DNA from: Callorhinchus milii
Lineage: Eukaryota
Length of the DNA stretch: 64,000 bases
Assembly (NCBI RefSeq): GCF_018977255.1
Contig: NW_024704746.1
Span: 60,078,001 to 60,142,000, forward strand
Direction of reading: 5' to 3'
In this document: in pieces, positions 4,385-51,129 of the stretch
Layout: each line of letters opens with the position of its first letter
Numbering within the stretch: position 1 is the first letter of the stretch
Made by a program: the position numbers and the translations under genes
Notes under the pieces: generated by a model
What the model saw: only the letters and a program-made list of their open reading frames with translations
Told to the model about the DNA's origin: nothing
Databases searched by the model: none

Positions 4385-4773
4385 ATAGTAATCTGTCTGA
4401 AGGAGGTGCTACAAGCAATATTAAACATTCATCAGAGAGCTGCCTAACCCTGCCTGTCAGTGGACTTTATGCCGCCAGCAGTACTAATTTGCCTGCAGTA
4501 GCAGTTGCATCCGATCTACTTATAGAGAATGGTTTCTCTGAAGCAAAACCCCAGTTCAACCATGACAATGCTCATCCACAAATCAACATCCAAAACATTC
4601 AGACACTCTATGAAGACCATGAGGAAAAGGAGTTTTCCTCCAACTTGTTAAACCCGAAACTCATTTCCTCTACCGATGCAGAGGATCTATCTTCACATCC
4701 ACGATCACCAGAGAAGAGGCTGCTGGCAACATTTGAAGACCCTATAGTAATGATTAGCACTATAGAGTGTTAG
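4385..4773 (+). CDS. PANX2: Pannexin-2, terminal coding exon
   Basis: Acceptor ttatttctcatAG|4385, phase 1 compatible with the exon ending at 1937. Reads DSNLSEGG...IQTLYEDHEE...LLATFEDPIVMISTIEC*, matching the human C-terminus INTLYEAREE...LIATFDEPRTVVSTVEF*. TAG at 4771-4773. Confidence 0.92.
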
Positions 4774-11708: not shown

Positions 11709-12615
11709 GGATATGGTATATAAACTATGGAGAGGTTTGTGGTGGTGCAGATTCAATGGGCCAAATGGTCTTCAACTGTTTCCAATTTCCTATATTCTGA
11801 GACTTCTCTCATTGAAGCTGAAATTGTTCCCCATTAGCTCAACCCCCTGATGATACAATACAAAATTACATTTCTATAACGCCTTTCACTTTGGGAGGAC
11901 ATCCCAACTTAAATTCTATCCTCTCCACAGAGAACACGTGCCTCCCACTTTACTTCCCGTACTCAGTGACTTGCACTTACCTATATTGTACGTCTGTATT
12001 GAACTGCCAGGAATTAGTTAATACTCTGTAAAGCTCTCTTAGTAAGATCTTGGCTGCCTCTTTGGATTCCATGGCTTGGTACCATTTGCAAATTAAACCA
12101 CTTTGCATTATGACTAGCAATCCAGGTCATAAATATATAAAGAAACAAGAGGGGTTCAAGTACAAATCCCTGAAATACCCAATACCCAACTCAATACTTC
12201 CCCTATTTTGACCTTGATATGTTTCTGACTACCTTTTGCTTCCCTTCATTTAGGTAGTTTCCAATGTGTGTCCATTTCTTACCCCTGGTAATCAATGAGA
12301 TCAGTTTGGAAAGGAGATTCTCAGCAGTCTTTTGTCAAAGATCTTTCGGAATTCTAGACATTTTATAAAAGTAGTAATTTTATGTAATATACTTCAACAT
12401 TTAAATTGGGATGCCACCTCCACAAAAAAATCTACCAGGTTAGTCAGAAAAGATCTTTCCTTTCTGAAACTGAGTTTGTTGTGTTTTATTCGGTTACGTC
12501 ATACATATTCTTTCATCTTACCTCTAATGATTGAGTTATATTGGTTGAAATCTTCTCCCAAGGCCACCGAGCTTCTATTTGCTTTCATTCATTCATCCCC
12601 CACCTGATTTTCTGC
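11709..12615. repeat. Direct duplication copy 2
   Basis: Same sequence as 8905-9810 with only a handful of differences. Confidence 0.9.
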
Positions 12616-18367: not shown

Positions 18368-21300
18368 CAGCAGCCCTGAAAGGCAGTTTCAGAATGGATA
18401 TTTGAGAACTTCCACTGACAGTGTGTCTGTCACCTGATGAAATCTGAAACATTGACCTGTATTTCTCTTTCCGGATGCTCTTCAACCTGCTCTGCATTTC
18501 CCATCACTTACTGTCTTTTTTTTGTATTTTATTTCACATTCACATCTGTTCATTCACATCTGAAGCAATGATATTAAATACCCATGAAGCAGTGAGGGCA
18601 TGAAACCTCCCTACAGATGGGCTTATCTGAACTCATCACATAATTTACCATAGGTGGAGATTTGGGAAGCTCTCAGATGCACTGCTCTCTCCATTACCCC
18701 AAGCGAATAAGATACAAACAGACTTTAACATCCGGTATACCTGAGAGGTCCAGTAATGTATTGACCTGCAGAAATTCATCCCCATAGTGCTGTAGCTTTT
18801 CCCATTAATCCTTTATTAATAGGGCATTGTGCAGTTGTCACATGAAAATACAGGGGAATATGCCTTTTAACCAATGTGAGAATAAATCAAGGTTACATTT
18901 TATTATAATAGCACATGTGGCAATACTTATTTCAAAGAGGTCCTGGAATTGTCAGTCAGACGGCAGATCTTTGGCTAGATCGTCCTTTGTTTGGCACTTG
19001 ACAGCTTTTCAAAGCACTTGGATTTGGTGTCGCTATTCAGAAATTGGGGGAACGGAAGATATTTTGAAATGCATTTTAACCTCAATCCTTAGATAAGGCA
19101 TTACAGTTGCAATTTTTGACGTGCTGTGAGATGCTACATTAATGCAATATAATATGCAGCGCTATATAAACGCAAGTTGTTGCTGTTGCCTTTGACTGCT
19201 GTATTTTTACGGCAGGAGCAATAAAATATTTTGCATTTCACTGCTGAACAGTATGTTTTCCCTTTCTCTCTCTCTTTTTTACTCTTTTCCACTCGAACAA
19301 CAACCAATGGCAAAATTCCTTGTTTGAAATGTTAATGGTGTTCAATTTACATTGACGAAGAACGTTTCACATCAAGAGGAAGTCTCAAAGTGCTTGACAA
19401 TGCTGAAAGGGCATCTGATCTGGGGATGGGAGCCGAGGAGGGGAGAGATGACCGAAAGCGCGGTCAAACAAATACTTTTTTAGACATGCCTCGAATGAGG
19501 GGAGTGTGCGAGTTTGTCAGAGAGACTCCAAGATGGAGTTTCCAGAGATTGGGGGGCAGAATGGCTGAAAGCCTGCCCGCCAATGACAGTGTCAAATAGA
19601 GCGGGAGACACTATTCACTGAGAGAAGGTAATAATAATAATAATAATCCTTACATTTGATATAGCGCTTTTCACATCTTCTAGACGTCTCAAAGCGCTTC
19701 ACAGAATATACTGTAAAGTGAATTGACTGTATATTTGTTGGTGTACGCGGGAGCCAATTGCGCACAGCAATGTCCCACAAACAGCCATGGATTGAAAATG
19801 ACCAATTTATTATTGTTTTGTTTTGGAGGAATTATTATTCCTTCCTTCAACCACACCGACCCAAGGGAGCAGCTAGGGTCGGTGTGGTTGAAGGAAGTTG
19901 TAGAACATTTCGAATCTAATGGACGGATTTGAAATCTTCAAACATTATTATTTGTCAACTGGGCTAGGTCAGCTTCTGTGTCGAATGTGATGGGGTCATT
20001 CCTCATCATTGGGACTTGAGCTACAGTCAAGGCTGGTATACAGAGCAGTGTTTGATTGTCAGAGGTGCTGCCCTTCAGATGAGGCATGAAACCAAGATCC
20101 TGTCTGTTCTTCAGATTCTATTGAAACAGAAAATGCAGCATTTCCTTACCAACAATTCTTAAAATTGAATTTGTCATAAAATGCTACTTATGAGACTCTC
20201 CTGATGCAAATTGCTGCCACCGCATTTGACAGTAATTCCTTATGAAATGTTTTGATGCTACGATGATTCAAGTTCTTTCTTTTATGTACCATCACAAGGA
20301 CTTCAACATGAATGGCTCTAGACAATAATAATAATAATCTTGGCATTTGATATAGCACCTTATCATGTCATCAAGACGTCTCAAAGCACTTCACAGAATA
20401 TACTGTAAAGTGAATTGACTGTATATTTTATGGGCGAAACGCGGCAGCCAATTGCTCACATCAGCGTCCCACAAACAGTTGTGGATTGAATGATCAACTT
20501 ATTATTATTTTTCAAATAATAGTAACAAAATCTAATAATAGAATCAACACTATTCATCTCAGGAAGTTTGTCCCCTTTGCTGGGACACAGGCAGCAAAGG
20601 AGCACTTAGGCTTTTATTTTCATCCAGTGCATTATTGGTACATTGAGGCCCAGTCAAGGTCATTTTGTCATCTGCTGGCTATTGAGTCGAGTGACGCAGG
20701 AAATCTATGCATTGTAATTTTAGTGATAATCACATGCATCTAAAGACCTTCTTCGGCAACCCGTCACAGTTTATTTTTAGGGTTTTTACTACCACAAGGA
20801 ATATTTGTGTAATTGCTGCTAAGCATCAAATGTATATTGGGGAGCGCTATATATAAAACAACCCTCCAATAAATACTGGATAATGGTTTTAATTCCAGGT
20901 GAATTCACAACTCCACTGGGTTGTATAAACGTATCTGGGCTCAGCTGGAGTAAATAGAAAAAGATTGCACTTCAACAGATTACCCTGTCAGATGTTGCAC
21001 ATTTTATAGCCCAGAACTGCTTCTAATGAAGCCATAAAACCAGGAGCTAGTTTTGTACAAAGTCATTCTAAAAAATAGTTCATGAAAATCTGAGTGAATA
21101 ACTGGGATTGCAGTTTAGAAGGCAATTTAATAAGTACAAAAGAGAATGAAATTACATCGGCTCATTGTTATAAATACCTGAGATCAAAACTGAGCACCAC
21201 ATCCTGAATTTAAAAAAATCCTCTGTAAAGAACAAGGTTAAAATGTGTGTTCAAAATCAACTGGCTTCTGAATAACAACGTGTACAAGCCCAGCTGAAAA

Positions 21301-21681
21301 AGGTCAAAGCGCTAATCATCTTGAATTCATACTTAACAGGGTTCATTATCAAACACTGAAAAATGTCCCATATAGGTTTACTCAGGAGATTCCAGTTTAA
21401 AAAGTTAACAGAATGAAGGAACAATGTTAAAATAGTTCGTAAGGACATAAGCATACTTCACTGACTTTGCGAAGTAACATCAGATAGTATTTACAATCAA
21501 AATATTGAAAACTCTTCCACCTAATCAATCCAATCGATATAATTTACAAACACAGACTGGTTTTCCACGCTACGTGTTAGAATTGCTTATGTGAAACGTT
21601 GCCACAAATGGCGTCATGTCGATGTTACATTGTATTTTTTCTCCCATTTTTGTTGTTGCACTTGCAGATCTGTGAGTGTGT

Positions 21682-21820
21682 TTAATGGAAAATTGAGCAT
21701 GATGGCATGAAATGATGAACCCATGTTCCAAGCTGATAGATTCCATAACACATCAGTCCAAACCACGCAGCTCTGATTACAACGCCCAGGGTTTTACTGA
21801 GGAATGAAGGAGCAGGGACG
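21682..21820 (-). CDS. TRABD: TRABD-like terminal coding exon (hydrophobic C-terminal anchor)
   Basis: Acceptor ccttctcttttacAG, phase 2. Hand translation (S)VPAPSFLSKTLGVVIRAAWFGLMCYGIYQLGTWVHHFMPSCSIFH*, versus human VPPPSVSGRVSRLAVKAAFFGLLGYSLY. TAA at 21684-21682. Confidence 0.88.
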
Positions 21821-21940
21821 CTGTAAAAGAGAAGGCATTGATGAATCTCTCACTTCTCTATCTAAAAAACTTTTATGGAGAGGTTCAGATTGGATATTTT
21901 TTTCCTTCCTGTGCTCTCCAAAAGGTTGTAGAATACTCAT

Positions 21941-22170
21941 GGGGGGAGAATTCCACCCGGGTCTACATTTAATCTATTAATATTGCATTTCCGAGAGTCC
22001 AGATTTTGGCAAATTAGCCTTGGCTTTAAAATTAATTTTATATTAAGGAATAAGGAAAGCTCACTGCAAAGGTGAGAGTGAATTCAATAATTTGTCAACT
22101 TCTGGGGATGATATGAAACACTAGGGTAATAGAGTAAATCTAGACCCAAATTCAAGGATTATTTCTCCCC
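21941..22170. mobile_element. MITE-like element with imperfect terminal inverted repeats
   Basis: Left ggggagaatt..gggtctacatttaatctatt and right aatagagtaaatctagaccc..atttctcccc. Related copies at ~14938-15140 and ~35138-35250. Confidence 0.6.
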
Positions 22171-22661
22171 AACAGAACCAATTTCTGCATCTCTGATTTT
22201 TTGCAAAACAATGAAGTTTTTAAATGATTTTTGCACACAGAAATAAAGCAGAATTTCCATTCAGAATAAGTCGGATGGACACGCTACAATCGTATTCTGT
22301 GCACTTTCTAGCACTCTTCCCCAATCACATGTATCATAAAGGTGACCTTACACTGTTGGGTCCCCCCAATTTATATTCTCCTGGTATGGTATCGCCAACA
22401 GTAAACACTCAACATACTTTATCGTAAATCCTATGAAGAACTTTGAGATGTTCTGTCAATGTAGTATATTGCTGCATCAAATTCAAGGATTATTGGTAAT
22501 AATAAACAATATATTAATCCTTACATTTGGTGTAGCACCTATCAGGAGGACGTCCCAAAGCGCTTCATAGGATATACTGTAAAGTGACTGTGTGTTTTGT
22601 AAGTGAATGTAGTATTATTATGGTGAGGAAGTGCTGCACCAAATTGATGAGTGAAGATTAC

Positions 22662-22773
22662 CTCATTATTTCTTGGATATTTAATTCATTATTCCAGTTT
22701 TTCTCAATTCCAGACACGTGACACATTCCAACCACTCCTACTATGACCGATGGTACAAATACTGTGGATTCAG
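22662..22773 (-). CDS. TRABD: TRABD-like coding exon containing the VVGMxH motif
   Basis: Acceptor tttgtttttcacAG, donor AG|GTAATC; 112 nt, phase 1 to 2. ESTVFVPSVIVGVVGMCHVSGIEKNWNNELNIQEIM, versus human VPSVVVGVVGMGHVPGIEKNWSTDLNIQEIM. Confidence 0.92.
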
Positions 22774-24008
22774 CTGTGAAAAACAAAGAAGAAATCATGG
22801 GATCACAGCAGGCAGCTTTGCCAGTTTGGAATAAAGTCAGTAGTATATATATATACATGTGAGGAAAACTATGAAGCTTATGTTTTCAATTATTGGTGGG
22901 TAAAATGTGGGATTTCCGATGGGATTCCTTAATAAGGAATTCTATTCAGAAATTCCACTCGAATCTGTCATTAAACCAAGATCTAATCTGCCTTTCTTAC
23001 TTAGAAAGGAGTTCCAGTAGCAATCTCTCATTTTCTTGTCTCTCAAAAAACAATAGTAATTTGGTCACTCAATCCACGACTGTTTGTGGGACATTGCTGT
23101 GCACAATTGGCTGCCGCGTTTCGCCCACAAAATATACCGTCAATTAATTTTACAATATCTTCTGTGAGGTGCTTTGAGACGACTCAACAATGTGATAAGA
23201 CTATATCAAATGCAAGGATTATTATTATTATTTTAGACCCTACTTGGCTTCATCTTGAACCTTATTAGACTATCGGGACCAAGGTTCCATAAAGTCAGGA
23301 AGAAAGCAAAGATAGCAAGATTCATCTAAACAGAGTCAACTGTGACACTCCATGAAAAAGGTTTTATTTGTCATTCAAAGTGAATAGCTGGAGATAGCTA
23401 TGTCAGAAAAAAGCAGGTTTGCGGGGAGGAATAAAATGGTTGTTTAGATAACCTTTATCTTCTCCATTCATCCAGTGTTTTGGGAATTTATCCATAATTG
23501 TCTTAAAATCAGGTTTGTAAAATATATAATGCAAATCTTAAAGAATAAAAACAACATATTTCATATCCATAAAAATTGGAGCAGGTGAGAAGAAATCTTC
23601 TTCACTAAAGCGACAGTATCACGGTTAAAGGGGCATTTTTTAAAAATATATTGGACAAGCACAAGCACTTACAGATTATATAGATAGGTATTAGAGGTTA
23701 TTGGGAAAGAGCAGAGATTTCCCAGGATATTAATCACTCCCCTACTAAAAAAAATGTGGTCACTCAATCCACGACTGTATATGGGACATTTGGGACATTG
23801 TCCGATCACCCACAAAATATACAGTCAATCCACTTTACAATATATTCTGTGAAGCGCTTTGACCTGCCTCGAAGACATGATAAGGCTCTATATCAAATGC
23901 AATTATTATTATACCAAATGCAAGGATTATTATTATTTTTGTTATAATTACTATCATAATTCGCACAGCACTGGTGTCGATATTCACCTCCAAATAAGTT
24001 GAACTTAC

Positions 24009-24181
24009 ATATTGAAGTTTGTGGCCGTTCGATGGGCTTTGCAGCCTGCCTGAGCATGTGAGTCAAATAGATATCCCGTTCAGTAATGAGAGTGTGGTAA
24101 AAAGAAGGCAAATGTTTACTTATACTCTTCTTCAGCTCCTCCAGAACGTCCCTTTGTTTCAACTTTTCCACAAACTCTTTC
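24009..24181 (-). CDS. TRABD: TRABD-like coding exon
   Basis: Acceptor cattttccAG, donor T|GTAAGT; 173 nt, phase 2 to 1. KEFVEKLKQRDVLEELKKSISKHLPSFYHTLITERDIYLTHMLRQAAKPIERPQTSI, versus human ...HRTIVSERDVYLTYMLRQAARRLELP. Confidence 0.9.
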
Positions 24182-24294
24182 CTGGAAAATGTTTACAGAA
24201 ACGTTATTTGGGAGTGGATTTCTTTGGAAATGAAAGGAGGATGGGATCAACAAGTAAGTGTTGCTAAAATAAAATATTTTCTATTCCCATTTAA

Positions 24295-24570
24295 GTGGTG
24301 TCCTTCAGCGAAACATTAAACTGAGGTCCCATCTTTGCCTTTTTAGGTGGATATTGATCCTGTGACACTATTCAAAAAGAGAAGGGAGTTTCTCCCGGTG
24401 TCCTGGCCAACAATCCCCCAAATAAAATTGGTCACCCACTTTTATGGGAGTCTGCTGTTGGCTAACAATTTGCCTACAAATACACAGTCACTACACTTTA
24501 CAGTATACCTTGTGAACTACTTCTGACGTCCTCTCAAGACGAAAGGCGCTATATCAAATGTAAGGCTTAT
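24295..24570 (+). mobile_element. DeuSINE-type fragment
   Basis: Core aaactgaggtccc...aggtggata..gatcc.gtgacactattcaaaaagag..ggagtttctcccggtgtcctggccaac. Confidence 0.6.
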
Positions 24571-25304
24571 TAATTTGAAATACTTAGGGTCCCAATATTG
24601 ATTGACTATCAAGCGATCCACGAATCATCTTTAGCAGAAAAGCATTTGCTTTGTTTCAAGGACATGCTACGATGAACGGCCTTTAAAGCACTAAATTCTT
24701 TTATATATCAAACTAATTCCAAGTGTCAATTATTTTTGCAATTTTTAGTTTATAAACATAGACATTCTCCTTTCAATATCTTTTTTACAATCATATATAA
24801 ATATATTGATCATCAAAAGGTTCCCGGGAATGATCCTTGGTCAAACGTTAAATGCTAAACTCAGTATAGTTTGTTGTGTATGAAGAAAATAATGCAAACT
24901 CTGAACTTACTTTAATAGTTTCTTCTGGGTCCCAGTACTATTCTGCTGAGAGTCCCACCTGGAAGGGCAAGAAGCAAGAAAGATAAGGACCAATGGATTA
25001 GAGATAGACTCTGTATTTACAATATGAAAAACATAAGTCTTAGTTCTACTTGAAAAAGTAAAGCGAAGGCTTAATCGATTATTCATAATAATAATAATCT
25101 TTGCATTTGATATTGCAACTTATCACATTGCCGAAATGTCTCAAAGCGCTTTCTAGGATATACTGTTTGTGGGTGAACGGAATTGATTATTGATTATTCA
25201 CAGCTAGTGAAAGCATATATAGGAGTCTTGGTAAGTATCTTGTTCTGGATAAATCACAAATAGATTTAGTGAAGTTCAGCAGATCTACTGCAATATATGA
25301 TATA

Positions 25305-25660
25305 GGACTAGGTTCAATTTCCGGGTGGGGCAGGTTAGGGCAAAACCTTAGGCAAGTTTCCTTACTCGACACACATGCCTCTGTTTACCTAGCAGTAAGT
25401 AGGAATCCAGATGTTAGTCGATTGGCGGATCAGTATCTGGGGGTAATAATCCCTCCAAAAAAGAACAATCATAATAATAATAATGTGGTCACTCAATCCA
25501 TGACTGTTTGTGGGATACTGCTGTATGCAATTGGCTGCCACATTTCACCCACAAAATACATAATCACTACACTTTACAGTAAATGCTGTGAAGCGCTTTG
25601 AGACGTCTCGAAGACGTGATAAGGCGCTGTATCAAATGCAAGGATTATTATTATATATAT
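25305..25660 (+). mobile_element. tRNA-derived SINE, 5'-truncated
   Basis: B-box ggttcaatttccc, with the same body and tail as the other copies. Confidence 0.8.
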
Positions 25661-26704
25661 TATTATATGGAGCTTTCTGTGTAGAGATTTCCTCTATCCC
25701 AAAGGACAGGAATTATTTTATCTTACAGTGCCTTCAACATATGCAAGATTCAATTTATTGTTTCTAACTCAGCAAGTTTTGAGTTATGCTTCATTACTAC
25801 AATTATATTTCAGTCTCTGAATACGGACCCAACGCTATTGAACCCTTTCACAATTGTGTTTTTTTTATATATGTGTAAGATAACAATCTACCCAGCTCAT
25901 AAAGAGTCCAGTATAAAAGTATACACGGCCTTTTCAATGGTTGTGATAAACTTCATAATATTATTACAAGATCACGATCACAGGATTAATTTGATTGAAA
26001 AAGCCCTTCAGCCAATCTGATCTCTTCGCTGCAGAACATCCACCCCGCAGTCAGTCCAATTAGTCCACACTGATGTTTATATTCCACTTGAGTATGATGT
26101 TTAATTATAATGTATTTCACAAAATATCACAGCAACAAGCTACTTTTTAGGAGACCAATGCTTTGGTCTCAACCACCCTTCCTGGCAACTTATTCTAGTT
26201 GTTAATTCCCCCAAATAACTGCGTAAAATAAAAAAATACTAATTTGCAAGCTTAATAGAGTGTTTAATATTCAATGTATCCAACAAAGCAATATGTCAAG
26301 CATATTGTATATATAAATATAATTTATATTTTTGCACGATTTTACATTGCTCTGCACCGATAGAATCACCTTTCAGAATGTGAAGCTGCGCTTAGAAAGT
26401 AGGTAATGTTGCTGAGATAATGAACAGAACAGCTGAATTTCCTGATTTAAGGTCACGACAATGTTCAAAGCACAGATAAACATCTTTCCACTACACCACA
26501 TCATGACATGTGTGCAATGAACAGACAAAGACACAATATATGGCAGATAAACTCCCCTAACCAAATAGAAGTGTCTATTGAAAAAGTAATTGTTTTTTTT
26601 GTTGGGGTGGGGTTGCACAATGTTTCAGGGCAAACTATCACAGCACTGAAATGTAGAACTTGAATGTAACATCCCTGAAGAATGCTGACGAGTTTTACCC
26701 ATAC

Positions 26705-26853
26705 CTGTTTTTCGTGATAATAAAGAAAAGGCTCATGAAACCAAAGCCAAGTTTAGCAATTTCCTGAAGGGAAAGCCCAGCGACAATTCTCTTAAAGGTG
26801 ATAAAGATAGGTCTGTCAGCCAGGTGCAGTTTACAAAATGGCACTTTTTTTGC
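26705..26853 (-). CDS. TRABD: TRABD-like coding exon
   Basis: Acceptor ctctctttcAG, donor AG|GTATGG; 149 nt, phase 0 to 2. AKKVPFCKLHLADRPIFITFKRIVAGLSLQEIAKLGFGFMSLFFIITKN, versus human ASKVPFCKFHLGDRPIPVTFKRAIAALS... Confidence 0.88.
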
Positions 26854-27134
26854 CTGAAAGAGAGATATTTCAACAAATGACACAGAATTACATAACAACA
26901 AAAAATTGCATTTATATAGTGCTTTTCACATCGGGGGGACATAGAGAGGTGCAGCACAGAAATAGGAGATTTTTGCCCAATTAGGACCGCACTGATGTTT
27001 ATGCTCCACTTGAGTTTGATGTTTAATTATAACGTATTTAACAAAATATCTGATAATCAAAGAAACTTACAGGACATAAACAGGCATTTTGACCCTTCAA
27101 ATCTGCACTGGTATTTTGTCACATTATGAGCCAT

Positions 27135-27500
27135 CTACAACAACAACAACAACTTCCACTTACATAGTGCCCTCCACGCAGGCTAGCGGCTCAGAGCGCT
27201 TCACAGTGGCGGAGCCTGACTCCGAGCCGGGGGGAGGGGGTAAGGTGGCCCTAAGCACGGTCGAAGAGGAAGGTTTTCAGGCGGGACTTGAAAATGGGGA
27301 GAGAGGGGGCAAGGAGGAGGGATTGAGGGAGAGGATTCCAGAGTTTCGGGGCGTAGTGACTGAAAGCGCGACCTCCAATGGTGGGGTGCGGGATGCGAGG
27401 GACGAGCAGGAGGCTGGTGCCAGTCGAGCGGAGGCGCCAGGTGGTGGACTGGGGAGTGAGGAGGTTGGAGAGGGAGGGAGGGAGGTGCCAGGGAGTGAAG
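27135..27500 (-). mobile_element. L2 LINE 3' fragment
   Basis: LRSTG...GGRAFSHYAPKLWNPLP...FKSRLKTFLF and a (GTT)n tail. Confidence 0.8.
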
Positions 27501-28858
27501 GGATCTAATCCCACTATCCTCTTCATAACCCACCATCTTTAATACTTTTCATTTTCGAACATCTGTTTAATTCCCATTTTAATAGAATTTATAGACTCTG
27601 CCTCACCAGAGGCTGAACAAAAATTGGTGACCTCTCTGTCTTTGTTACTAATCACCCTGATGGAAGGGAAACATAAATATTCTAAAGTTATATCCTTGCA
27701 ACTAATATAAAGCCATCTTATGTCAAAACATCTCAAAGCAGTGCGCAGAGTTTCCTTTAAAGTGAGTGACTTACTTTTTATTTGCAGGCAAGCGCAGTAA
27801 GCAATTTTCCCGTATCAATGTCCCACAAACAGCCATAAAGTGAACAGTCCATTTTATCTGGAGGACTACTGGGCAGGACATCAAAAAATAATACTTTCCT
27901 CTCCTTTTGATAATGGCCTGGAGTCTTTAAAGTCATATCAACAACCAGACAGGACTTTGGTTTAGCATCTCATCCAAAGGATGGCACTTCCTCCAGCACC
28001 TTATTGAAGAAGATGTTGAGTTCAAAGCTCGGATAAGGAAGTTTGAACCCACATCCTTCTGACTCGGAGGCTAGAGTCAAATGTCTTTCCCATTCAGAGC
28101 CAGTAGCAAGCAATGTTAGGAAAGGTGCAATAAATTTCCGTAACTTTATCCTTCAATGTAGTAATAAATTATTATTATACATTAATATTCCAAGATCAGA
28201 AGATACTACAAAAAATAACCTTAATGTTAAAGATTTCTGTCTGTTGTATACTAGGCAAAGTAATGTAGTTGGAAACCATTGTTTTGGAATAGCTTGGTAA
28301 CATTTATTATTAAAGCCTGATTCTTAATGACTTTTCTGCATGAATGACAGATACCCTATTTCTAAACCAGCAAGCATTAATATACTGTATATCAAAATAG
28401 TTCTTATTCAGAAGATATCAAATTAATCAATTTAGCTCTCTGAAAATGACTCAAATGATTTTGGCTATAAAGCCAATTGTTTACACTGAAGACAGTCTCC
28501 AAGCAATTTTAGGATCACCGCAGTATCCTCATCCATCTGCATTTAATCATTTTCTGGTCTGGAGTTTTACGGTGGCTTTCTTTTTCCAATAATTGGCAGA
28601 GGGAACACGATAGCATAAGTTCAGCCTCTTAATAAATCAAATTAAATAAAGGACTGTTTCCAATCATGGAGACAAAAATGGAAACATAAGCTAACTTTTA
28701 TATCTTTTGAAATATCTTTTAACCACTTCAGAAAGTATGAGCAAGTATTCTGTGTGCCAAAATACCACCCATTCCTACAAAGATGTACATCAGTATTTGA
28801 CCTTAACAAGTCAGGTAAGGGCATCAGGATTACGATGCTCTGCGCCCAGTGCTCCTAC

Positions 28859-28969
28859 CTCCTTGAATGCGGCTCTCATCTCTCCTCCTGGAAACATTCC
28901 CAGCTCTTCTACAACAAAGTTGACTCCCATAATGAACAGGAACTCCAACAACCCCACCTTAACACCCAC
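28859..28969 (-). CDS. TRABD: TRABD-like coding exon (not shown in this frame in the ORF track)
   Basis: Acceptor gtattgactAG, donor GAG|GTAGGA; 111 nt, phase 0-0. Hand translation VGVKVGLLEFLFIMGVNFVVEELGMFPGGEMRAAFKE, versus human ...EQLGMAPGGEFREAFKE. Confidence 0.88.
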
Positions 28970-29029
28970 CTAGTCAATACGTTGAAAGAAAAACACAGTG
29001 ATTTGCAAGAGTGCCTGCACTTGAAATGA

Positions 29030-29512
29030 ATTACAATACAATACAATATTACATTTGTAAAGCGCCTTTCATGTTGGGAGGACGTCCCGAGGAGCCGGAC
29101 AGTCAGGTGTTTGGACTTGAGCCGTGGGGTCGGAATCGGGGAATGTGGAGGCCAAGGAGGGTAGGAGGGTGGCCGAAGGCTCGTTGAAGAGGAGGGTATT
29201 GAGACGCACCTTGAAGGAGGAAAGGGAGGGAGCAAGGCAAAGGGAACGTGAAATGACGTTCCATAGAGTGGGGACAGAAAGGCTGAAGGCCTGACTGCCG
29301 ATGGTGGGGTGGGCCGGGCGGGGGACTTGGAGTAGGCCACAGCCTGCTGAGTGGAGGGAGTGGACAGGTTGATATGGACATGGAGTCAGCAGGTCCCAGA
29401 GGTAGGGAGGGGCAAAGCCGTGGAGGGCTTTGAAGGTGAGGATGAGGATTTTGAACTCTATCCTTTGGGGGATGGGGAGCCAGAGGAGCCGAGCGAGGGT
29501 GGGAGTAAATGA
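29030..29512 (-). mobile_element. L2 LINE 3' fragment
   Basis: LARLLWLPIPQRIEFKILILTFKALHG.APPYL... Confidence 0.8.
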
Positions 29513-30524
29513 CAAATTATTTTCCTATAAGTTCTATTTAAAATGTTTGTTGTTACAAATAAATTACATCTTTATTATTTCTTCTGACTAGAAAAAACTC
29601 CATGACTGCTAGGGTGTGCAAACAATGTCAATGAGGATATTTGGAAATGTCACTCAAGTAGGTATCATGTCCGGTTGGCAACATACAAAACTTCACCACC
29701 TCTGCTTCATGATACAAAAAGAAGAAATACAGGAAAGAGTGAATACAATACATTATAATAATCCTTGTGTTTGATATAGTGCCTTATCACAACTTGAGAA
29801 GTCTCAACGTGCTTCACAGAATACAACTGTAAAGTAAATTGATTGTATATTTTGTGGGCAAAATATTCACCTGCAGTATCTAGGGTACCAATCACATCTT
29901 CAGCTATCTATAGAACATATGTCCTGCCAATTGCAATCATCTTGCTCTGTTTTTCCTTTGATTCTCCCCCAAGGCTTTGTTTCTTTTTTCATCCCCTTCA
30001 CCTGTCTGGTACTGTGCCCTTCCTCCATCTGCTCTGTGCCTGCTCTATCTGCATCAAAGTCACAGCTCTCTTCGTCTTTCTTGCTAACACGGCCAACTCT
30101 TCAATGAGTCGTGTCACCTTTCTTGCCCTGATATGAATCAAAGTCTGAACAGTATTTTCCATTTCTCACACTATTTGTGTGCTCTCTCTGAATCAGTTGT
30201 CCAACTTAAAGCTACATTAACTGCACAATAAAAAGATGGTTCACAGCTTTTTATTGTGCTTTGTCTGGATAGGACTGCCCTACTGACAGAGACTGGCTTG
30301 CAGTGTTCGCAACATCATATACATCCAAACCAACCATCAATAATACCATGGATTACTGTGGATCTCCTTGGAGAATGTTGAATCCTGGGGAAACCTTGCT
30401 TACCGCTGTCCAAAGGAGATTGTTTTTTAGACAAGGTACATATTTTAACAAAGCCAAGAGGCTGAAAAATTGAGAGAAAACAATAGAATTCAAATTCAGA
30501 TCCAAGGCTTATTTGACTGACTAG

Positions 30525-30885
30525 AACAACAACAACAACAAGATTCCATTTATAGAGCGCCTTTCACGTCGGGAGGACGTCCCAAGGCGCTGTACAGTTC
30601 GGTCAGGACCCGAGCAAGGGGGAAATGGTCAGGGTGAGGGAAGGGAGGGAGCGAGGAGGGGGTAGAGAGTCGAGAGGGGAGCTGAAGGCACGGTCAAAGA
30701 GAAAGGTCTTGAGACCGGCCTTGAAGGAGGAAAGGGAGGAGGCGGCGAAGGCACTGGGGGATAGAGTTCCAGAGCCGAGGGGCTGAGAGGCTGAAGGCCC
30801 GGCCACCGATGGTAGGGCGGTTGGGGCGGGGGATGTGGAGCAGACCGGAGCCAGAGGAACGGAGGGTACGGGCAGGTAGGTAGGG
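30525..30885 (-). mobile_element. L2 LINE 3' fragment (young; closely similar copy at 33192-33495)
   Basis: SFKAGLKTFLFDRAF, and tail cgcctttcacgtcgggaggacgtcccaaggcgc with (AAC)n. Confidence 0.8.
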
Positions 30886-31139
30886 GGATAGTATGTATGT
30901 AGTTCAATCTCATCAGGGTGGATTGGATTCAATCCTAGGCCATAACTAGAGCATTGGTCTTCAAACACACTGTTCTACCAAGTCCATCAAATGCACTAGT
31001 CTTTTATGTCTTAATATATTTTAGTCATTAAAGAATACAAGGTTTTGGTAACAGTGTACAACACTGGAATTCCGTGGGGTCTTGCGTTATCACCACAAAG
31101 CACCAGATTTTGGCTCAGAAATGAAATAGAAACCTGCAC

Positions 31140-31280
31140 CTCCTTTATTTTCCTTAGCAGCAGTTGTAGGTTCACGGTTTCCATCGCCTCCATCAGTTTC
31201 TGCTCATCCCAATGCAGCAATGAAACTCTGCTATTACAGAGTTCCAAAATGACCGAGTCTGGCTGCAGTTGTTGGATAGT
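31140..31280 (-). CDS. TRABD: TRABD-like coding exon
   Basis: Acceptor tttttttcttgcAG, donor GAG|GTGCAG; 141 nt, phase 0-0. TIQQLQPDSVILELCNSRVSLLHWDEQKLMEAMETVNLQLLLRKIKE, versus human TIREVQPDVVVVELCQYRVSMLKMDE... Confidence 0.88.
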
Positions 31281-32378
31281 CTGCAAGAAAAAAAAACAAT
31301 CCTTTCTATGATGCATCATCAATCAAATAAAACCAATGTATGCTTCTTTTATCTTTTATATAGGAACAGTGGAGCCTCCCTCTAATATTCTCTTTTGAAC
31401 TATAAGGGTTAGAGATAATAGATATCATACTTTCTCTCCTTAAAGAAAAAGTCAGAACAATGCAAACTATAGGAAAGGCGATGCTTTGTCCACTGTTTTC
31501 AAGACGTTTCGTGGGTCAGTGTCATACACAAGAGGATCTCTGGAGGAGCTGCAATTTATTCCCACAGGTACCTTTTCTAGTGCAAGCACCATTTACGCTC
31601 CTGTTTTCCTGTTGAATGCTTGTTAGTTCCCATTGCTGCAGATATACCAGGGCAGTATAACTCTACAATGCACTAAATGATTAAGTGTGCAATTGTACCA
31701 ATAATGTTCCATCTTCTCTCTTCACAGAACAAAGAGAACTCAGTGGAGTTTTTGTCACTTCAGAGGAGCAGCCCACACCTGAACAAGAACCATCATCTAC
31801 GCTGACAATCGAATGCGGTGCTGACCCAACGCTTCATTGTCAGAGGTGCTATCCATCGAGTTAGATGCACCTCTGACAATGACAATTAACCTCCTTAAAG
31901 AGGAAGAGGTTAATTTGAAGAGGTTAATGATCCCATGGCATTACTCATAAAAGTTTATGAGTTTACGCCATTGCTCTAGCCAACTTTTCTCATTCCAACT
32001 AGCCATCTCTAGCCACCATGAGAAGCCCTTACCTCAAATGTAAGGATCATCATTATTATAACCACTACTTAGGTCTGTGGGACGCTGCTGCGTGCAATTG
32101 GCTGCTGCGTTTTGCCCACAAAATATACAGTCAATTCGTTTTACAGTATATTCTGTGAAGCGCTTTACGACGTCTCGAAGACATGATAAAGCGCTATATC
32201 AAAAGCAAGGATTATTTTTATTATTATTTATTATTGTGCTGTTGCTTGTTTAAAACAAAACAGATCCATGTACTTGGGGAAAATTTAGATACGACTGAGA
32301 AATCAGTTCATAACATGTAAATTTACTGATGTTTGAAGAATTGTCATCTCGGTCTGCTGTGGAACAATCCTGGATTAC

Positions 32379-32545
32379 CTGCTTTACATCTCTTATGCTC
32401 TTCTTACTGACATGTGCAGTGCCAACTAAGTAGACTTTGCAGCCTTCTTCAGTGACGAGTTCAGTCACAGACTTTGGTAGTTTAGGTATCATCTTTCTCT
32501 TCCAAATCTTCACTGCCCATAGGAGGTCAAATACTTCTACATAGG
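32379..32545 (-). CDS. TRABD: TraB-domain protein (TRABD-like) coding exon containing the GTAH motif
   Basis: Acceptor tttcaatctgcAG, donor CAG|GTAATC; 167 nt, phase 1 to 0. Reads YVEVFDLL...LPKSVTELVTEEGCKVYLVGTAHVSKKSIRDVKQ, versus human LPRTVTQLVAEDGSRVYVVGTAHFSDDSKRDVVK. Confidence 0.9.
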
Positions 32546-33191
32546 CTGCAGATTGAAACAAAAATTACAGATTTATCACAGATAATGGCAACAAAAATTT
32601 CAACTGCATCAAAACTCTTCTTAAAACGGTATAATTTTAATTTTAAAAAAAAGGAAAACAAAATTTAGAAAGATTGGATCAAAGTGGAAAATATTACAGG
32701 TAATACACCAGGAATGGTATGTTGACATACCATAGAATTATCGTTTCACTTTGCAAGCACTTCCTGTACTGGGAAATTAAATCATCGCCCTAAATTGAGC
32801 TACAGGGGAATTTCCGATTGTTGATTTCTGTTTCAAACCACTGGATGCCTTTGCAAGATATCAGTAATGCAATTTCAAACAAAATACAAGCAATGGTTGC
32901 AACTAAAACAGGCATGACATGACCAACACGGGACATGTGTTAGAATATAATTTTCCCGATATCTCACTGAGTGAGACAAGCACATTGCCTGGAGCAGCAG
33001 GAGGCTTGGCTGTGATTACATTTCTTTCGCCGAGTAAGCCAGTTATCATTGACTGTCCAGAATCGTACATGAAGAATAGCCATTAGGGTGAGGGACTAGA
33101 GGGCTGAGGGTTCCAAGTGCATCACAGAATATACCGTAAAGCCAGTTGACCGTACATTTTGTGGACAAAACGCGTTCAGCAGTGTCCCACA

Positions 33192-33495
33192 AACAACAAC
33201 AACAACAAGATTCCATTTATAAAGCGCCTTTCACGTCAGGAAGACGTCCCAAGGCGCTGCACAGTTGGGTCATGACCCGAGCAGGGGGGAAATGGTCAGG
33301 GTGAGGGGAGGGAAGGGAGGGAGCGAGGAGGGGGGAAATGGTCAGGGGAGGGGAGGGAAGGGAGGGATCGAGGAGGGGAAGAGAGTCGAGAGGGGAGCTG
33401 AAGGCTCGGTCAAGGAGAAAGGTTTTGAGACCGGCCTTGAAGGAGGAGAGGGAGGAAGCAAGGCGAAGGCACTGGGGGATAGAGTTCCAGAGCCT
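33192..33495 (-). mobile_element. L2 LINE 3' fragment nested in a minus-strand SINE (33120-33690)
   Basis: Same tail as the 30525 copy; SINE pieces on both sides. Confidence 0.75.
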
Positions 33496-35572
33496 CGGAT
33501 TGAGTCGTGGATTGAGTGACCAGACTCTTATCAGATATATATTTTGAATGGATTATTACTCCCGGAAAACCAATCCACCAATCGACTGACAACCGGGTTC
33601 CTACTTACTGTTAGGTAAACAGAGGTACGTGTGTGGAGTAAGGAAATTTGCCCAACGTTTCGCCCTGCCCGGGAATCAAACCCAAGTCCTCAGCTGTTAC
33701 TAAGTTCAGCACAAGTACAAGAAGCTGTAACCACTGTAGAATTAGAGCATTTTCCAATGTTCAATTTATTATTGAAATAAACATACTTATTTGTTTGAAA
33801 GTGTCTGAAGCACTCCACCTCTGTCTTGTTTTCTGTTGAGAATAAAAAAATTGTCAACAACAAGATCTTCTGGAAGAACACTGAGGTCCTTTATTTGACT
33901 TCATGTAAAACATTCACCCACAATACATATGCCTGGACAAACCATCTTTGCTAAGTGGCCCAGATCAGAAAACCAGAGTATTTGGGTCTTTTAGTGGCTA
34001 GAAGTGTAACTTGGACACATGACCCTGGTTCCCATAGACCTGTGGACTTCATTCTCAGAGACAACCAAACATAACCTTACAGGGAACGTTCTACCTGTCT
34101 CTTCTGATATTTTCCTGATATCTCACTGAGTGAGACAAGCACATTGCCTAGTGCAGCACGAGGCTTGGCTGTGATTACACTTCTTTCCCTGAATAAGCCA
34201 GTCATCATTGACTGACCAGAATTGTCCATAAAGAATAGCTGTTGAACATTTCCTCTTTGAATCACCCCAAGCACTCCACCATAATGCACACTTCTGACTT
34301 AAGAATTTCAGTTACTGTTTCATATCATGGAAAGTTTAGGATAGTTTTGTAACTCTTTCAGATATAGCGATAGTCTGTCCATGTACAGTGAGCTTCTCTT
34401 TCACAGGTACTGTTATTTATTGTTATAAACTCTTTCAATTTAGCACCCTGGTACTATGTTAAACATTAAACAGAAGGCAGCTCGCTGATAAAGTTGTGGC
34501 TGTGCTGCTTTACAAAGATTACTTATTCCCAGCCTACTTTGATAATTCTTCAAAACCAGTCAGGTATGGATAATGGTGTGTCTAGACGGATCCTCCAACT
34601 GAGAATCAATTGTCAAAACCAACCTTTGTCATCATTAATAAGAATTGTTGATTAGATTTGTGCTGTGGTTTTCAGGCACTAAAACCTACCTTAGACCTTG
34701 GAATAATTAATAGCTATTTTGTCCCTTCATAATCATTCAACACAAAAATATCCAAACAAGCAATAGAGCAGAAACAACTCAAGGGACTGTACAAGGCAAT
34801 TTTGAAACACTACAGTGCTTTTTTATTAAATGCTATTTCTCCCTGATTCTACCTCCAAGTGACAAATATAAATTTGTATCATACTCTGTATTGATTTTCA
34901 GTATTTGGTTAATTCGTTCCAAAGACTTAAGCAGGTATCATTATTGTCTTAATATGGTGAAGAATGCAAAGTTTCAAAACACATTCAATGTCATTATTTC
35001 TTCTGAAACATTGCACCAAAGCAGGATACACTGTGCATCGAAAAAATTCTCCCAAAATTGAACAAATTTAAAGCACCTAAATTCCTAAAGAGTATAAAAT
35101 CAAAAACCTGCAAGCCTACTTATGTGGCAACTTATTAAGGGGAGAAATTTAGAGTAACCTGGGTCTAGAGTTACTCTAAATATGCAGCATTTTTTAAAGA
35201 GTGTCTAGAATTTGGCAAGTGGTTGAATTCAGTCTTAGTTTGGAGGTCGTTTCCTGTTGTTCTTCAAAGAAAAGAAAACCTGCTACAAAATTCAGGCCCC
35301 TTGGTTTAACTTCTCAACCGAAGGGTGGCACCTCCGGCAATACATCACACTCCTAGCACTACATTGAAGTGTCAGCATAAACCAAATCAGTTCTAATTCC
35401 TGATGTGGGGCTTGAACCCAAAACCTTCTGATTCATAGGCAAGAATACTACCAACTGAGCCAGACTGACGCACATTAATGCCGATTGGTTAGGAATGTAA
35501 CTTTAAACCACATACAGGATGAGGTAGTCCAACCTACACTCTGGACTATCCTGGTGAAATCAAAGCCATTTA

Positions 35573-35955
35573 GAGTCCTGTGACTAAGTGGTTAGAGAAC
35601 TCGCTTTGTATGTCAGAGGGTTATGTCATGGTTTTGATTCGTGGCAGGGTGAAATGTTGGGCAAGTTTCCTTACTCCAAACGCCTGTTTGCCTAGCAATA
35701 AGTAGGGACCCAGTTGTTAGTTAATTGGCGGATCGCTTTTCTGGGGGTAATAATTCCTTTAAAATAAATAAAAATAATTTGGTCACTCAATCTACGACTG
35801 TTTGTGGGACACTGGTGCAGATTGGCTGCTGCGTTTCGCCCACAAAATGTACAGTCAATTCACTTTATAGTATATTCTGTGAAACACTTTGAGATGTCTT
35901 GAAGATGTGATAAGGCGCTATATTAAAATGCAAGGATTATGATTATTATTATTAT
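35573..35955 (+). mobile_element. tRNA-derived SINE, full length
   Basis: Head gagtcctgtgactaagtggttagag, body and (ATT)n tail. Confidence 0.85.
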
Positions 35956-36119
35956 TTGCCAGTTAATGGGGGGAGATTATGGTATGTATGTGTGTATCTC
36001 CTCCCTTATTTTCTTTTGCACAGTACAGTAATGGTACAGGTGCAAGAAGATTGGAGGGAAAATTTTAAATGCAAAATTAATCAGCTTAATAAAAAGAAGT
36101 TCAAATAAAACAAACTTGC

Positions 36120-36155
36120 CTTTCTCTTTTTCCTTCCTGAGAGAATTCTGTAACC
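36120..36155 (-). CDS. Candidate 36-nt upstream micro-exon of the TRABD-like gene (GC-AG donor)
   Basis: Strong acceptor tttttttgtttttcAG and donor AAG|GCAAGT. A phase 1-1 reading (xLQNSLRKEKEK) joins the 32545 exon in frame. No homology support. Confidence 0.3.
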
Positions 36156-38474
36156 CTGAAAAACAAAAAAATTGACAAAGCCTCAGCTGTGTTATGACTG
36201 TAACTGAAGGCCCACATTAATAATAGTGCAATTATACTATATGTGCTGATTTGCTGCCAGTGCCATTTTTAGAATGGTGCAAACAGACAGCAAGTGCAGT
36301 GTTATACAACCTCCTCCCGCTGCTCTCCATTGAGTCAAATGTTGGCAGAGGTCTCACTCCCGCTGTCAGTGAATTTGATTTATTTTGCCAATTTTTTCCC
36401 TTCTTCGTCACACGTGAAGTCATTTGGCTTCTTCCTTTCCCTAAGATACTGTTTCAAGGTCTCTCTCTGGTACGTTGCCAACTCTGATACTTTGCCACAT
36501 ATCTATTATTCATCCATGAGCCTTGTCTGTGTACTATTTAACCATGAGGGAGGGAGGGACGGTGGCATCACAGTTCAGCCTAATCTTATCATCGCATGAT
36601 GTGAAAGGAGGCATAGAGAGCGTGTATCCTCCACAGGCACACTTCCACTGAGAACAGCTGGTGAGTGAATACTCAACACTCCCCACACAGCAATTTCTAC
36701 ATTTCTGCCAAGCTATTGAGGAAGGCATAGAGCAAAGAGCATGTTTCCTCCGCAGGTACCAGAAGGAAAATCAAAGGTTAAGCCACCCCCGTCTGCTCTC
36801 ATACGTCTCCATATGGCCAATCATTTGAAGCATTGAAAGAAGCCAAGCACTAAACCAAATTAATTCTGCTGCACAAAATTTCACAATGTATGTTGGGAAT
36901 GGGGCTTTGGTTAAAAGCATTATTATAATCCTTGATATCGCGCTTTATCGCACCATCAGGACATCTCTCATCACTTCACATGATTTTTACCGTGAAGAGT
37001 TATGACTTGTACTTGTGGGCAAATTGCCATCTGTGGCCTTGGCCTTCAAAATACATTCACTGAAATTTACAGCAAATGTGAAGATTTTTGAGACTTCCTC
37101 CTTATGTGAAAGGCACTATATTAAATGCAAGATTTATTATTTATATTATAAGTGAGGTCATGAAATAAACAGTCTTATCTGACTGTAATTACAAAAGGTA
37201 TCAATCATACCTCCTCCACCACCCATTTGATAACCCTCCCTACCTTGTTGTGTTGATTTCGCAGCATCACTGAATTTATTTTCTTTTATCAGATAGATGG
37301 GGTTCTGTATGAAAAATAACAAATGAAGTTAAGCAGATTGATGGAAAACCCACTTCACACAAAACTGGCCATATTTCACAACTCATTGGGTAGCTTAATC
37401 ATCACATGAAACTCATAAAACACAACTGAATTTGGCCTAATGACTGATTAAAAATACATTGTTTGCAGCCTTGTTTTGGGATAACTATAAACTTTTGTAT
37501 GCTTCAGTGTCAAATAAAAGTATTGGAGCAATTCCGGATACATTGAATTACTGTATAATAATAATAACAATCTTTACATTTGATATTGTACCTTTCACTT
37601 CAAAACAACAGCTCAAAGTGCTTCACAGAATTTACTGTGAAGTGCAGTGGCTATATTTTGAAGGCAAACACAGTAGTCAATTTGTGCCTAGCAAGATCCC
37701 ATAAACGTTTCTGGAGGGGTTGTTGTCCAGGACACCAGGAGAAAATCCATCAATCCCTCAGATCAAATTGAGGAGTAGAAGTAGAAAGAGAAAGATTGGG
37801 CTGGTGCCACCTTGTTACTATTCAATGCTTTAAAGCAGGTTTCGTTTGTGACACCAAACACTGCGAATTGCATGGATAATTAACGTCAGTCTCTAATTAA
37901 GGAAAACTACAAGTTATTACTGCTTGATCAAGGTAAAAAAATTCACTTTGATAAAGAATTGACCAAATGTTTGTGTTTAAACTCAGCATGATTATTACCC
38001 CTCAAACCAGGACAGTGCAGTTTATGGCACAGCCAACATTGCTGGGGCACTTTCAACCATGTCACAGTTTCATCAATCAAGTTTACAGGAATGATCAGAA
38101 AACAATAGAAAATCTATGTCAACATTTATGATTTAGTTTCAATCCAAGCTGTTTGTTTCACTTCTGGATTCAGTGAAAAACTGGTTTCTGTTCAACTTTC
38201 CTCATGATAATTCCTTGACTTTCTTGCATATCAGACTGCTTGTACGTCTTGTACATTTTGTTTTGGGGGAATAATAATAATCCTTACATTTGATATACCG
38301 CATTATCATGTCTTTGAGCGCTTCACGGAATATAGTGTAAAGTGTAGTGACTGCATATTTTTTGGGTGAAACGCAGCAGCCAATTGCACACAGCAATAAT
38401 TCTCACCTTGATCAACGGGTGTAGCTGATTTTCTGCAATTCTCTTCCCAAAAGCGGAAATGTTACCAAAAATCA

Positions 38475-50861: not shown

Positions 50862-51129
50862 GGGCCAACTGAGGGCCAGGTTGTTAAACACAGTAGTTAG
50901 CAGTGGGGAAGTCTGTTCTGTGAGGTTACCACCACCTGTGGCTGTGTCCCAGGACTCACGCCCAATGGGGCGGGTTGGTGATGGCATTGGGCGTGATTTA
51001 AGACGGCTTTGGGCGGTCCCTTAATTTTTTTTGCCATTTCATTTCGGAAAAAAACTTTTCCCTTCCCCTTTGAATACCTTTTCTTATAGCGTTTCGAGAG
51101 AGAGAGAGAGAGGGAGAAAAAAAGGGATA

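What the first reader, a model, noticed from the sequence alone, without database searches (positions are those of the whole stretch)
21682..32545. Intact but strongly diverged, inverted TRABD copy: candidate lineage-specific TraB-family paralog
Seen in sequence: seven GT-AG exons (167/141/111/149/173/112/139 nt) splice in phase into ~330 uninterrupted codons with a hydrophobic C-terminal anchor. Established knowledge: in human the order is PANX2(+)-TRABD(+)-SELENOO(+), and TRABD is normally well conserved. Here the gene faces PANX2 tail-to-tail. By eye it is only about half identical to human TRABD, while the neighbouring PANX2 core is near-identical. Inference: this may be an inverted duplicate under relaxed or new selection rather than the true orthologue. 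It keeps the TraB/PrgY/Tiki-type candidate metal-site residues (GTAH, ELC..R, GGE, ERD, G..H).
Basis: partly seen in the sequence, partly recalled or inferred. Interest (0 to 1): 0.7.

Follow-up and report, generated by a model that had tools for sequence, protein, structure and literature searches.

The report
Fast-evolving TRABD duplicate in cartilaginous fish
The elephant shark has a second, flipped copy of the mitochondrial-surface gene TRABD that is spliced and intact but has changed about nine times faster than its neighbour, is likely shared with sharks and rays, and has lost the charged tail that is predicted to steer it to mitochondria.

Summary
The gene is real and is a duplicate. 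The conserved TRABD (copy B; 91% identical to sawshark TRABD) starts 180 bases past the window on the + strand and is followed by SELENOO. The minus-strand gene (copy A) is 47% identical to B. Contigs from 4 of 4 runs (2 studies) splice it. A changed about 9 times faster than B (125 vs 14 sites), yet keeps 43 of 45 family-conserved residues; dS is about 1.1 and dN 0.41. It is probably not chimaera-specific: whale shark, zebra shark and two stingrays carry similarly diverged copies, and in three of them it lies on a contig of the same length as their TRABD. Trees join them to A, but simulations show long-branch attraction could do that. All five have a short C-terminal tail without Lys/Arg, unlike 13 of 13 canonical TRABDs, which predicts weaker mitochondrial targeting (untested). 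A third, intron-poor paralog lies on another contig. Three literature searches found no paper. Verdict: new member of a known kind, modest interest.

The parts
21682..37267 (-). TRABD paralog A, whole coding span (11 coding exons, 381 aa)
   Evidence: The exon set translates letter for letter to XP_007889150.1 / UniRef100_V9KQW9
37244..37267 (-). Coding exon 1 (ATG at 37267; in-frame stops upstream in the same exon)
   Evidence: joint not listed
36120..36155 (-). Coding exon 2 (36 nt, GC donor; basic Arg/Lys cluster)
   Evidence: fit to the RefSeq protein; joint not listed
33787..33832 (-). Coding exon 3 (46 nt)
   Evidence: joint 32545/33787 in 4 of 4 runs
32379..32545 (-). Exon of 167 nt; start of the TraB domain, His80
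31140..31280 (-). Exon of 141 nt; Glu104, Arg109 (a RefSeq isoform adds 2 residues at its end)
   Evidence: contigs of X3 and X4 run through it (table 8)
28859..28969 (-). Exon of 111 nt; Gly166, Glu168
26705..26853 (-). Exon of 149 nt (140 nt in copy B, so +3 codons); Asp188, Arg189
24911..24958 (-).
   Evidence: joints in 4 of 4 runs; segment lengths
24009..24181 (-). Exon of 173 nt; Glu275, Arg276, Asp277
22662..22773 (-). Exon of 112 nt; Gly314, His317
21682..21820 (-). Last coding exon: predicted tail-anchor helix (342-373) and a short tail with no Lys/Arg
21108..21681 (-). 3' UTR (ATTAAA at 21131; one contig runs on past 21001)
   Evidence: contig ends are only a weak hint

Best explanation
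This is an intact, spliced, inverted neighbouring duplicate of TRABD that likely arose before chimaeras and sharks split, and it likely makes a tail-anchored TraB-fold protein whose core site is kept but whose surface, N-terminus and anchor tail have changed, so that it is predicted to be less firmly targeted to the mitochondrial outer membrane than its parent. Shown: duplication, orientation, splicing, open frame, rate asymmetry, kept core residues, loss of basic tail residues, and an N-terminus turned from acidic to basic. Inferred: one ancestral duplication shared with sharks and rays (about 65%); purifying selection on the fold and site with relaxed selection elsewhere (about 90%); re-targeting towards the ER or mixed membranes with new partners (about 35%). 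Whether any TRABD is an enzyme is open in the literature.
For: Duplicate: three TRABD loci in the genome, A (-), B (+) and C. B is followed by SELENOO and is 91.4% identical to sawshark TRABD, while A is 45.9%. A and B share exon sizes 167/141/111/173/112. Splicing: CT..AC joints in 4 of 4 runs from 2 studies. Rate: 125 vs 14 lineage-specific changes with chicken as outgroup (p 5e-21); significant with all 5 of 5 outgroups. Constraint: 43 of 45 positions conserved in at least 90% of 94 reference proteins are kept; A differs from B at 13% of the most conserved and 72% of the least conserved columns. dN 0.41, dS 1.0-1.2, pairwise ratio 0.35, bootstrap 0.24-0.48. Contig differences: 11 in 574 UTR bases vs 2 in about 990 coding bases, one of them synonymous (p 0.0005; 0.007 without three shared sites). 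Age: no intronic match was singled out, and of 209 blastn pieces between the A and B regions only 3 touched exons. Diverged 'traB-like' proteins exist in whale shark, zebra shark, Hemitrygon and Hypanus. In the first three, this copy and canonical TRABD lie on contigs of identical length. Trees join A with them (91/83; 99/97; 91/89), and A+B as a clade is rejected (p-AU 0.016). Tail: 5 of 5 A-type proteins have 10-16 residues and 0 Lys/Arg after the anchor columns; 13 of 13 canonical ones have 26-29 residues and net +1 to +4. Lower tail charge shifts tail-anchored proteins from mitochondria to ER (PMC5450235, passages). The human TRABD tail is sufficient for mitochondrial targeting (PMC12329661, section 3.1). 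Fold: pLDDT 88.6; best matches are 8bqs_DQ (Z 13.9, rmsd 4.6, 221 aligned) and ChaN (Z 8.8).
Against: Long-branch attraction is not excluded. With independent duplications simulated, the observed likelihood gap was reached in 13 and 18 of 100 draws (simple model) and 4 of 24 (mixture model, where the observed gap fell to 5.7). A shares the derived residue with whale shark at 18 of 75 sites (24%), against 14-22% for the other long branches. Of 31 residues derived in both whale shark and stingray, A has 6, the coelacanth copy 6, copy C 5 and sponge 5. The 2-3 residue loop extension also occurs in the C-type paralogs, which the data reject as one clade with A (p-AU 0.0004), so that insertion arose at least twice. 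Same-length contigs show one chromosome, not adjacency. Anchor hydrophobicity of A (GRAVY 1.16) lies inside the canonical range 0.56-1.26. The shark and ray copies keep one Lys at the end of the anchor columns. Localisation rules come from mammalian cells. The branch estimate of dN/dS for A (0.32-0.82) rests on an assumed split of dS. The polymorphism table was cut at 25 rows.
Confidence: 0.55

Rival explanations
1. A is a holocephalan-only duplicate; sharks and rays duplicated TRABD independently, and the copies look alike because relaxed copies decay at the same sites.
For: Simulations show the tree grouping can be an artefact. Shared derived residues are barely above controls. A is only 42.8% identical to the whale shark copy, less than to B (46.9%). 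The 48-nt exon and the basic N-terminus are unique to A.
Against: It needs two duplications on the same chromosome and two losses of the basic tail. The AU test rejects A+B. dS near 1.1 points to an old event, though I had no shark DNA to calibrate it.
Confidence: 0.3
2. A stays on the mitochondrial outer membrane and does TRABD's job in some tissues or stages (subfunctionalisation or dosage); the divergence is mostly drift.
For: Core residues and fold are kept. Anchor hydrophobicity is in the canonical range. Basic residues remain at the start of the anchor helix.
Against: Net charge is +23 vs +1 for B; the N-terminal 35 residues are +11 vs -6; there is a 16-residue insertion and an uncharged tail. 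Changes are nine-fold one-sided, where partitioning would more often be shared.
Confidence: 0.35
3. The paralog was driven by positive selection (a new substrate or a conflict role).
For: Extreme rate asymmetry in chimaera, shark and ray copies alike (125:14, 139:10, 125:12). Whale shark and stingray copies are only 53% identical to each other, whereas canonical TRABD is 88-91% identical across chimaera, shark and ray.
Against: Whole-gene dN/dS stays under 1 for every assumed split (0.32-0.82). No site or branch-site test was possible.
Confidence: 0.15
4. A is a decaying, transcribed pseudogene.
For: High dN (0.41); two changes beside conserved histidines, F81V and G316C.
Against: Open frame over 11 exons at dS about 1.1; 43 of 45 conserved sites kept (p 2e-12 if changes were spread evenly); spliced in 4 of 4 runs; coding differences scarce.
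Confidence: 0.03
5. It is the single orthologue in a local inversion, or an assembly duplicate.
For: None beyond the odd orientation.
Against: A conserved copy B lies beside it; the copies are 47% identical, not allelic; both are separately annotated.
Confidence: 0.01

Closest known systems
TRABD (TraB domain-containing protein; human, and copy B of this genome)
   Same: Pfam PF01963 (57.4 bits, cut-off 26.8); five core exon sizes; all 16 invariant residues of the 102-sequence alignment; a C-terminal anchor helix.
   Different: Opposite strand; 47% identity to B; 11 coding exons vs 9; +3 codons and a new 16-aa exon in a segment that is 22 aa in 21 of 21 canonical proteins; basic instead of acidic N-terminus; short uncharged tail.
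'traB domain-containing protein-like' of Rhincodon typus, Stegostoma tigrinum, Hemitrygon akajei, Hypanus sabinus (RefSeq names)
   Same: Fast-evolving second TRABD; contig of the same length as canonical TRABD in three species; lengthened loop; short tail without Lys/Arg; grouped with A in three trees.
   Different: Only 41-45% identical to A; shorter N-terminus; no 16-aa insertion; orthology likely, not shown.
Tiki1/2 (TRABD2A/B) Wnt proteases and the TIKI/EreA/ChaN superfamily
   Same: Fold matches ChaN (Z 8.8), EreC (Z 5.8) and RRSP (Z 5.5); conserved His, Glu and Arg residues.
   Different: No hydrophobic N-terminal stretch among the top windows; tail anchor rather than GPI anchor (PMC12329661, passages). 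Protease activity is not shown for any TRABD according to that paper's discussion.
Intron-poor TRABD-like paralog C (G000:C22; coelacanth H3BG56)
   Same: Another diverged TRABD copy in this genome that keeps the core site (41 of 45) and a lengthened loop.
   Different: Different contig; one intron in the stretch examined; basic tail (+3); 57% identical to a coelacanth protein; rejected as one clade with A.

Membership tests
TraB/PrgY/GumN (PF01963) | Score above Pfam's curated cut-off | tested here: met
   57.4 bits vs 26.8, residues 66-325
TraB/PrgY/GumN (PF01963) | Family-invariant His/Glu/Arg/Asp residues | tested here: met
   H80, E104, R109, E168, D188, R189, E275, R276, H317 invariant in 102 sequences; 43 of 45 conserved positions kept, exceptions F81V and G316C
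TIKI/EreA/ChaN fold | Parallel beta-sheet core flanked by helices, matching solved members | tested here: met
   Model pLDDT 88.6; 8bqs_DQ Z 13.9 (Foldseek E 2.5e-7), ChaN Z 8.8; EreC and RRSP only Z 5.5-5.8
TRABD gene family (paralog) | Shared exon structure and nesting within jawed-vertebrate TRABD | tested here: met
   Exons 167/141/111/173/112 shared with B; inside the gnathostome clade at 100/99
TRABD orthologue | PANX2(+)-TRABD(+)-SELENOO(+) position and high conservation | tested here: not met
TRABD-type outer-mitochondrial-membrane tail anchor | Moderately hydrophobic C-terminal helix followed by a basic tail | tested here: inconclusive
   Helix present, GRAVY 1.16; tail has no Lys/Arg. 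Sequence only
TRABD-type outer-mitochondrial-membrane tail anchor | Localisation with TOM20; interaction with PGAM5, MFN2, MIGA2, PLD6 | not testable with these tools
   Needs cell work (PMC12329661)
Shark/ray 'traB-like' clade | Monophyly with A, robust to long-branch attraction | tested here: inconclusive
   Trees and AU test in favour; simulations reach the observed gap in 13-18% of draws
Shark/ray 'traB-like' clade | Same inverted position beside TRABD | not testable with these tools
   No shark genomes held; only equal contig lengths
Tiki (TRABD2A/B) protease | N-terminal signal peptide and extracellular topology | tested here: not met
   The four most hydrophobic 19-residue windows start at 140, 204, 303 and 342; the N-terminal 35 residues are net +11. 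Hydropathy only, no signal-peptide predictor
Tiki (TRABD2A/B) protease | Metal-dependent peptidase activity; 2His/2Glu site mapped on a solved enzyme | not tested
   Residues were not superposed one by one; activity needs an assay

The most novel reading that the evidence does not exclude
Cartilaginous fishes have kept, for about 400 million years, a second TRABD that left the mitochondrial surface for another membrane (ER or nuclear envelope) while keeping an intact TIKI-type catalytic site. With the intron-poor third copy shared with coelacanth, early jawed vertebrates had a small TRABD family that most bony vertebrates lost, and comparing the copies would separate TRABD's putative enzyme activity from its scaffold role in mitochondrial fusion.
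Probability: 0.2. Interest if true: 0.55.

Novelty: new member of a known kind. Interest (0 to 1): 0.33.

Why it matters
TRABD is a very conserved outer-mitochondrial-membrane protein whose biochemical activity is unknown. A long-lived paralog that has changed over half of its residues but kept the His/Glu/Arg site is a natural mutagenesis experiment: it argues that the site matters in its own right and marks the surfaces (N-terminus, helical lid, tail) that are free to change. It also shows a fast-evolving gene family inside genomes known for slow evolution (that reputation is recalled). The gene is already annotated automatically, so what is new is its history and the tail change, not its existence.

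Tried and rejected
1) Pfam search of the own genome found only copy C, because short exons were missed; protein queries found all three loci. 2) My first guess of a 49-nt exon broke the frame; the true exon is 48 nt. 3) Origin of the 48-nt exon by duplication of a neighbouring exon: 569, 809, 585 and 14 of 1000 shuffles reached the score in four comparisons; not claimed. No repeat match in the fetched regions. 4) Copy C as a retrocopy of the A lineage: rejected, p-AU 0.0004. 5) Coelacanth H3BBZ4 as an A orthologue: joined at 92/83 in one tree, unresolved in another; left open. 6) Shared-derived-residue counts gave little signal above controls. 7) Calibration of dS: bioRxiv 10.1101/2022.10.17.512540 (passages) gave an approximate 400-My divergence but no chimaera-shark Ks. 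8) Tissue specificity: no listed holder is on record as RNA, sample names are coded and contig depth cannot rank genes. 9) ESM Atlas gave only general TraB clusters. 10) Literature: 'TRABD'+'Callorhinchus' 0 papers; 'trabd'+'shark'+'duplication' 2 listed, unrelated by title and abstract start; 'TraB domain-containing'+'cartilaginous' 0. Subscription journals and supplements were not covered. PMC3794667 (Bazan 2013) is not held. 11) Earlier scan findings: none. 12) No complex prediction was run, as no binding is claimed. 13) The 209 blastn pieces between the A and B regions were not sorted into repeats and true intron homology.
Full report
Observation. Contigs from four runs (two studies; 'RNA' is the tool's guess, but joints with CT..AC ends show splicing) list six joints in 4 of 4 runs, and two contigs run through the remaining two junctions. 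Two further 5' exons, fitted to the database protein, give an 11-exon frame from an ATG at 37267 that translates exactly to XP_007889150.1 / UniRef100_V9KQW9, named 'traB domain-containing protein(-like)' of Callorhinchus milii. In-frame stops lie upstream of that ATG.

It is a duplicate. The window is G000:C5:60078001-60142000. A search with the canonical protein returned 18 matches: 16 fall in three loci and 2 are noise (E above 0.9). Copy B starts 180 bases past the window on the + strand and is followed by SELENOO-like exons, then fibrinogen-like and TUBGCP6-like exons (named by eye from translations). The order is PANX2(+), A(-), an intronless tetraspanin(-), B(+), SELENOO(+). B is 91.4% identical to sawshark and 71.6% to gorilla TRABD; A is 46.9% to B and 42.5% to gorilla. 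So B is the orthologue and A an inverted neighbour, head-to-head with B, start codons about 27 kb apart.

Selection. Over 326 codons, dS is 1.0-1.2 and dN 0.38-0.43 by four methods; the pairwise ratio is 0.35 (bootstrap 0.24-0.48). Nearly all protein change is on A: 125 vs 14 sites with chicken as outgroup, significant for 5 of 5 outgroups. A rough branch ratio for A is 0.32-0.82, depending on how dS is split. Change is graded by family conservation: 13% of the most conserved and 72% of the least conserved columns; 43 of 45 positions conserved in at least 90% of 94 reference proteins are kept, the exceptions being F81V and G316C beside the two histidines. Contig differences from the reference fall mostly in the 3' UTR (11 in 574 vs 2 in about 990 coding bases; the table was cut at 25 rows). 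This is relaxed but real purifying selection; positive selection is neither shown nor excluded.

Age and range. Among the 120 listed of 314 homologues, and the 150 listed of 2271 representatives, nothing outside A's own cluster exceeded 50% identity to A. But similarly diverged copies exist in whale shark, zebra shark, two stingrays and coelacanth. In whale shark, zebra shark and Hemitrygon the diverged and the canonical protein come from contigs of identical length, which suggests one chromosome. Three trees join A to the shark and ray copies, and A+B is rejected (p-AU 0.016). Against this, data simulated under independent duplications reached the observed gap in 13 and 18 of 100 draws and in 4 of 24, and counts of shared derived residues barely exceed controls. 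A segment that is 22 residues in 21 of 21 canonical proteins, from sponge to gorilla, is longer in 8 of 8 paralogs, but these include the C type, which is rejected as kin of A. I put a single origin before the chimaera-shark split (about 400 My; bioRxiv 10.1101/2022.10.17.512540, passages) at about 65%.

Structure and likely working. The model (pLDDT 88.6, pTM 0.84) has the TraB core at about 58-329 and a C-terminal helix at 342-373. Best matches are a Tetrahymena complex IV-associated chain (8bqs_DQ, Z 13.9, rmsd 4.6, 221 aligned) and ChaN (Z 8.8). Human TRABD is anchored in the outer mitochondrial membrane by its C-terminal helix, N-terminus outside; its tail region is sufficient for targeting, and whether it is a protease is stated to be open (PMC12329661: abstract, section 3.1 and passages). 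A keeps the helix with ordinary hydrophobicity, but its tail is 16 residues with no Lys/Arg; the four shark and ray copies have 10 residues and none, while 13 of 13 canonical proteins have 26-29 residues at net +1 to +4. In mammalian cells, lowering tail charge moves tail-anchored proteins from mitochondria to the ER (PMC5450235, passages). A also swapped an acidic N-terminus (-6) for a basic one (+11) and is net +23 vs +1. My reading is a membrane-anchored TraB protein with the site intact, altered partners and likely weaker mitochondrial targeting. The last step is a prediction only. 'Metal site' is a recalled label: one TIKI-family enzyme is metal-independent (PMC6254334, passages).

Third copy. 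G000:C22:2988104-2989900 or so holds an intron-poor TRABD-like gene, annotated, spliced in contigs that bridge its intron in at least three of four runs, 57% identical to a coelacanth protein.

Novelty. Three searches found no paper on these paralogs (open-access library only, supplements not seen), and the scan has no earlier finding. The gene is already annotated automatically, and asymmetric evolution after duplication is common. New here are the likely cartilaginous-fish-wide range, the three-copy family and the shared loss of the basic tail. New member of a known kind; interest 0.33.

Noticed in passing
window 45977-46693 (-): Intronless tetraspanin ORF (about 238 aa; Pfam PF00335, 149.6 bits) in a GC-rich island between TRABD copies A and B. 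The other six matches in the genome are 27-39% identical, so it is an old gene or retrocopy; TSPAN7-like by recall. It would be a good synteny marker for the duplication.
   Followed up: partly
G000:C22:2988104-2989900 (-); L021 about 4100-5900: Third TRABD-like gene with one intron in the stretch examined, at the same position as an A/B intron, and none downstream (partial intron loss or partly processed retrocopy). Spliced in contigs; relative in coelacanth. Its database N-terminus is amphipathic and Arg-rich (moment 0.76), like a mitochondrial presequence.
   Followed up: partly
protein P0145 (UniRef100_H3BBZ4, coelacanth): Coelacanth has a further strongly diverged TRABD besides the C type; its tie to copy A is unresolved.
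   Followed up: partly
window 36120 (-): Coding exon 2 of A ends in a GC (non-GT) donor in the RefSeq-fitted model.
   Followed up: partly
window 41259-41293 (-): Short stretch with a good acceptor and a GTAAGT donor; a candidate 5' non-coding exon of A. Not tested with reads.
   Followed up: no
window 50000-53000: CpG island (observed/expected 0.7-0.9) between the divergently oriented A/tetraspanin and B; it could be B's promoter or a shared one.
   Followed up: no
window about 9494-9799 and 12299-12604 (+); 33000-33090 and 34150-34240: Near-identical local repeats: the two ORFs translate almost alike, and a short segment upstream of A's exon 4 is duplicated. One UniRef model (P0009) starts in the latter, likely wrongly.
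   Followed up: no
window 446-1954 (+): Large PANX2 exon, matching solved PANX2 at E 8.7e-238.
   Followed up: yes
PDB 8bqs_DQ / 7w5z_E: The best structural match is a chain of the Tetrahymena mitochondrial complex IV; that it is a TraB-family protein is recalled, not checked.
   Followed up: no
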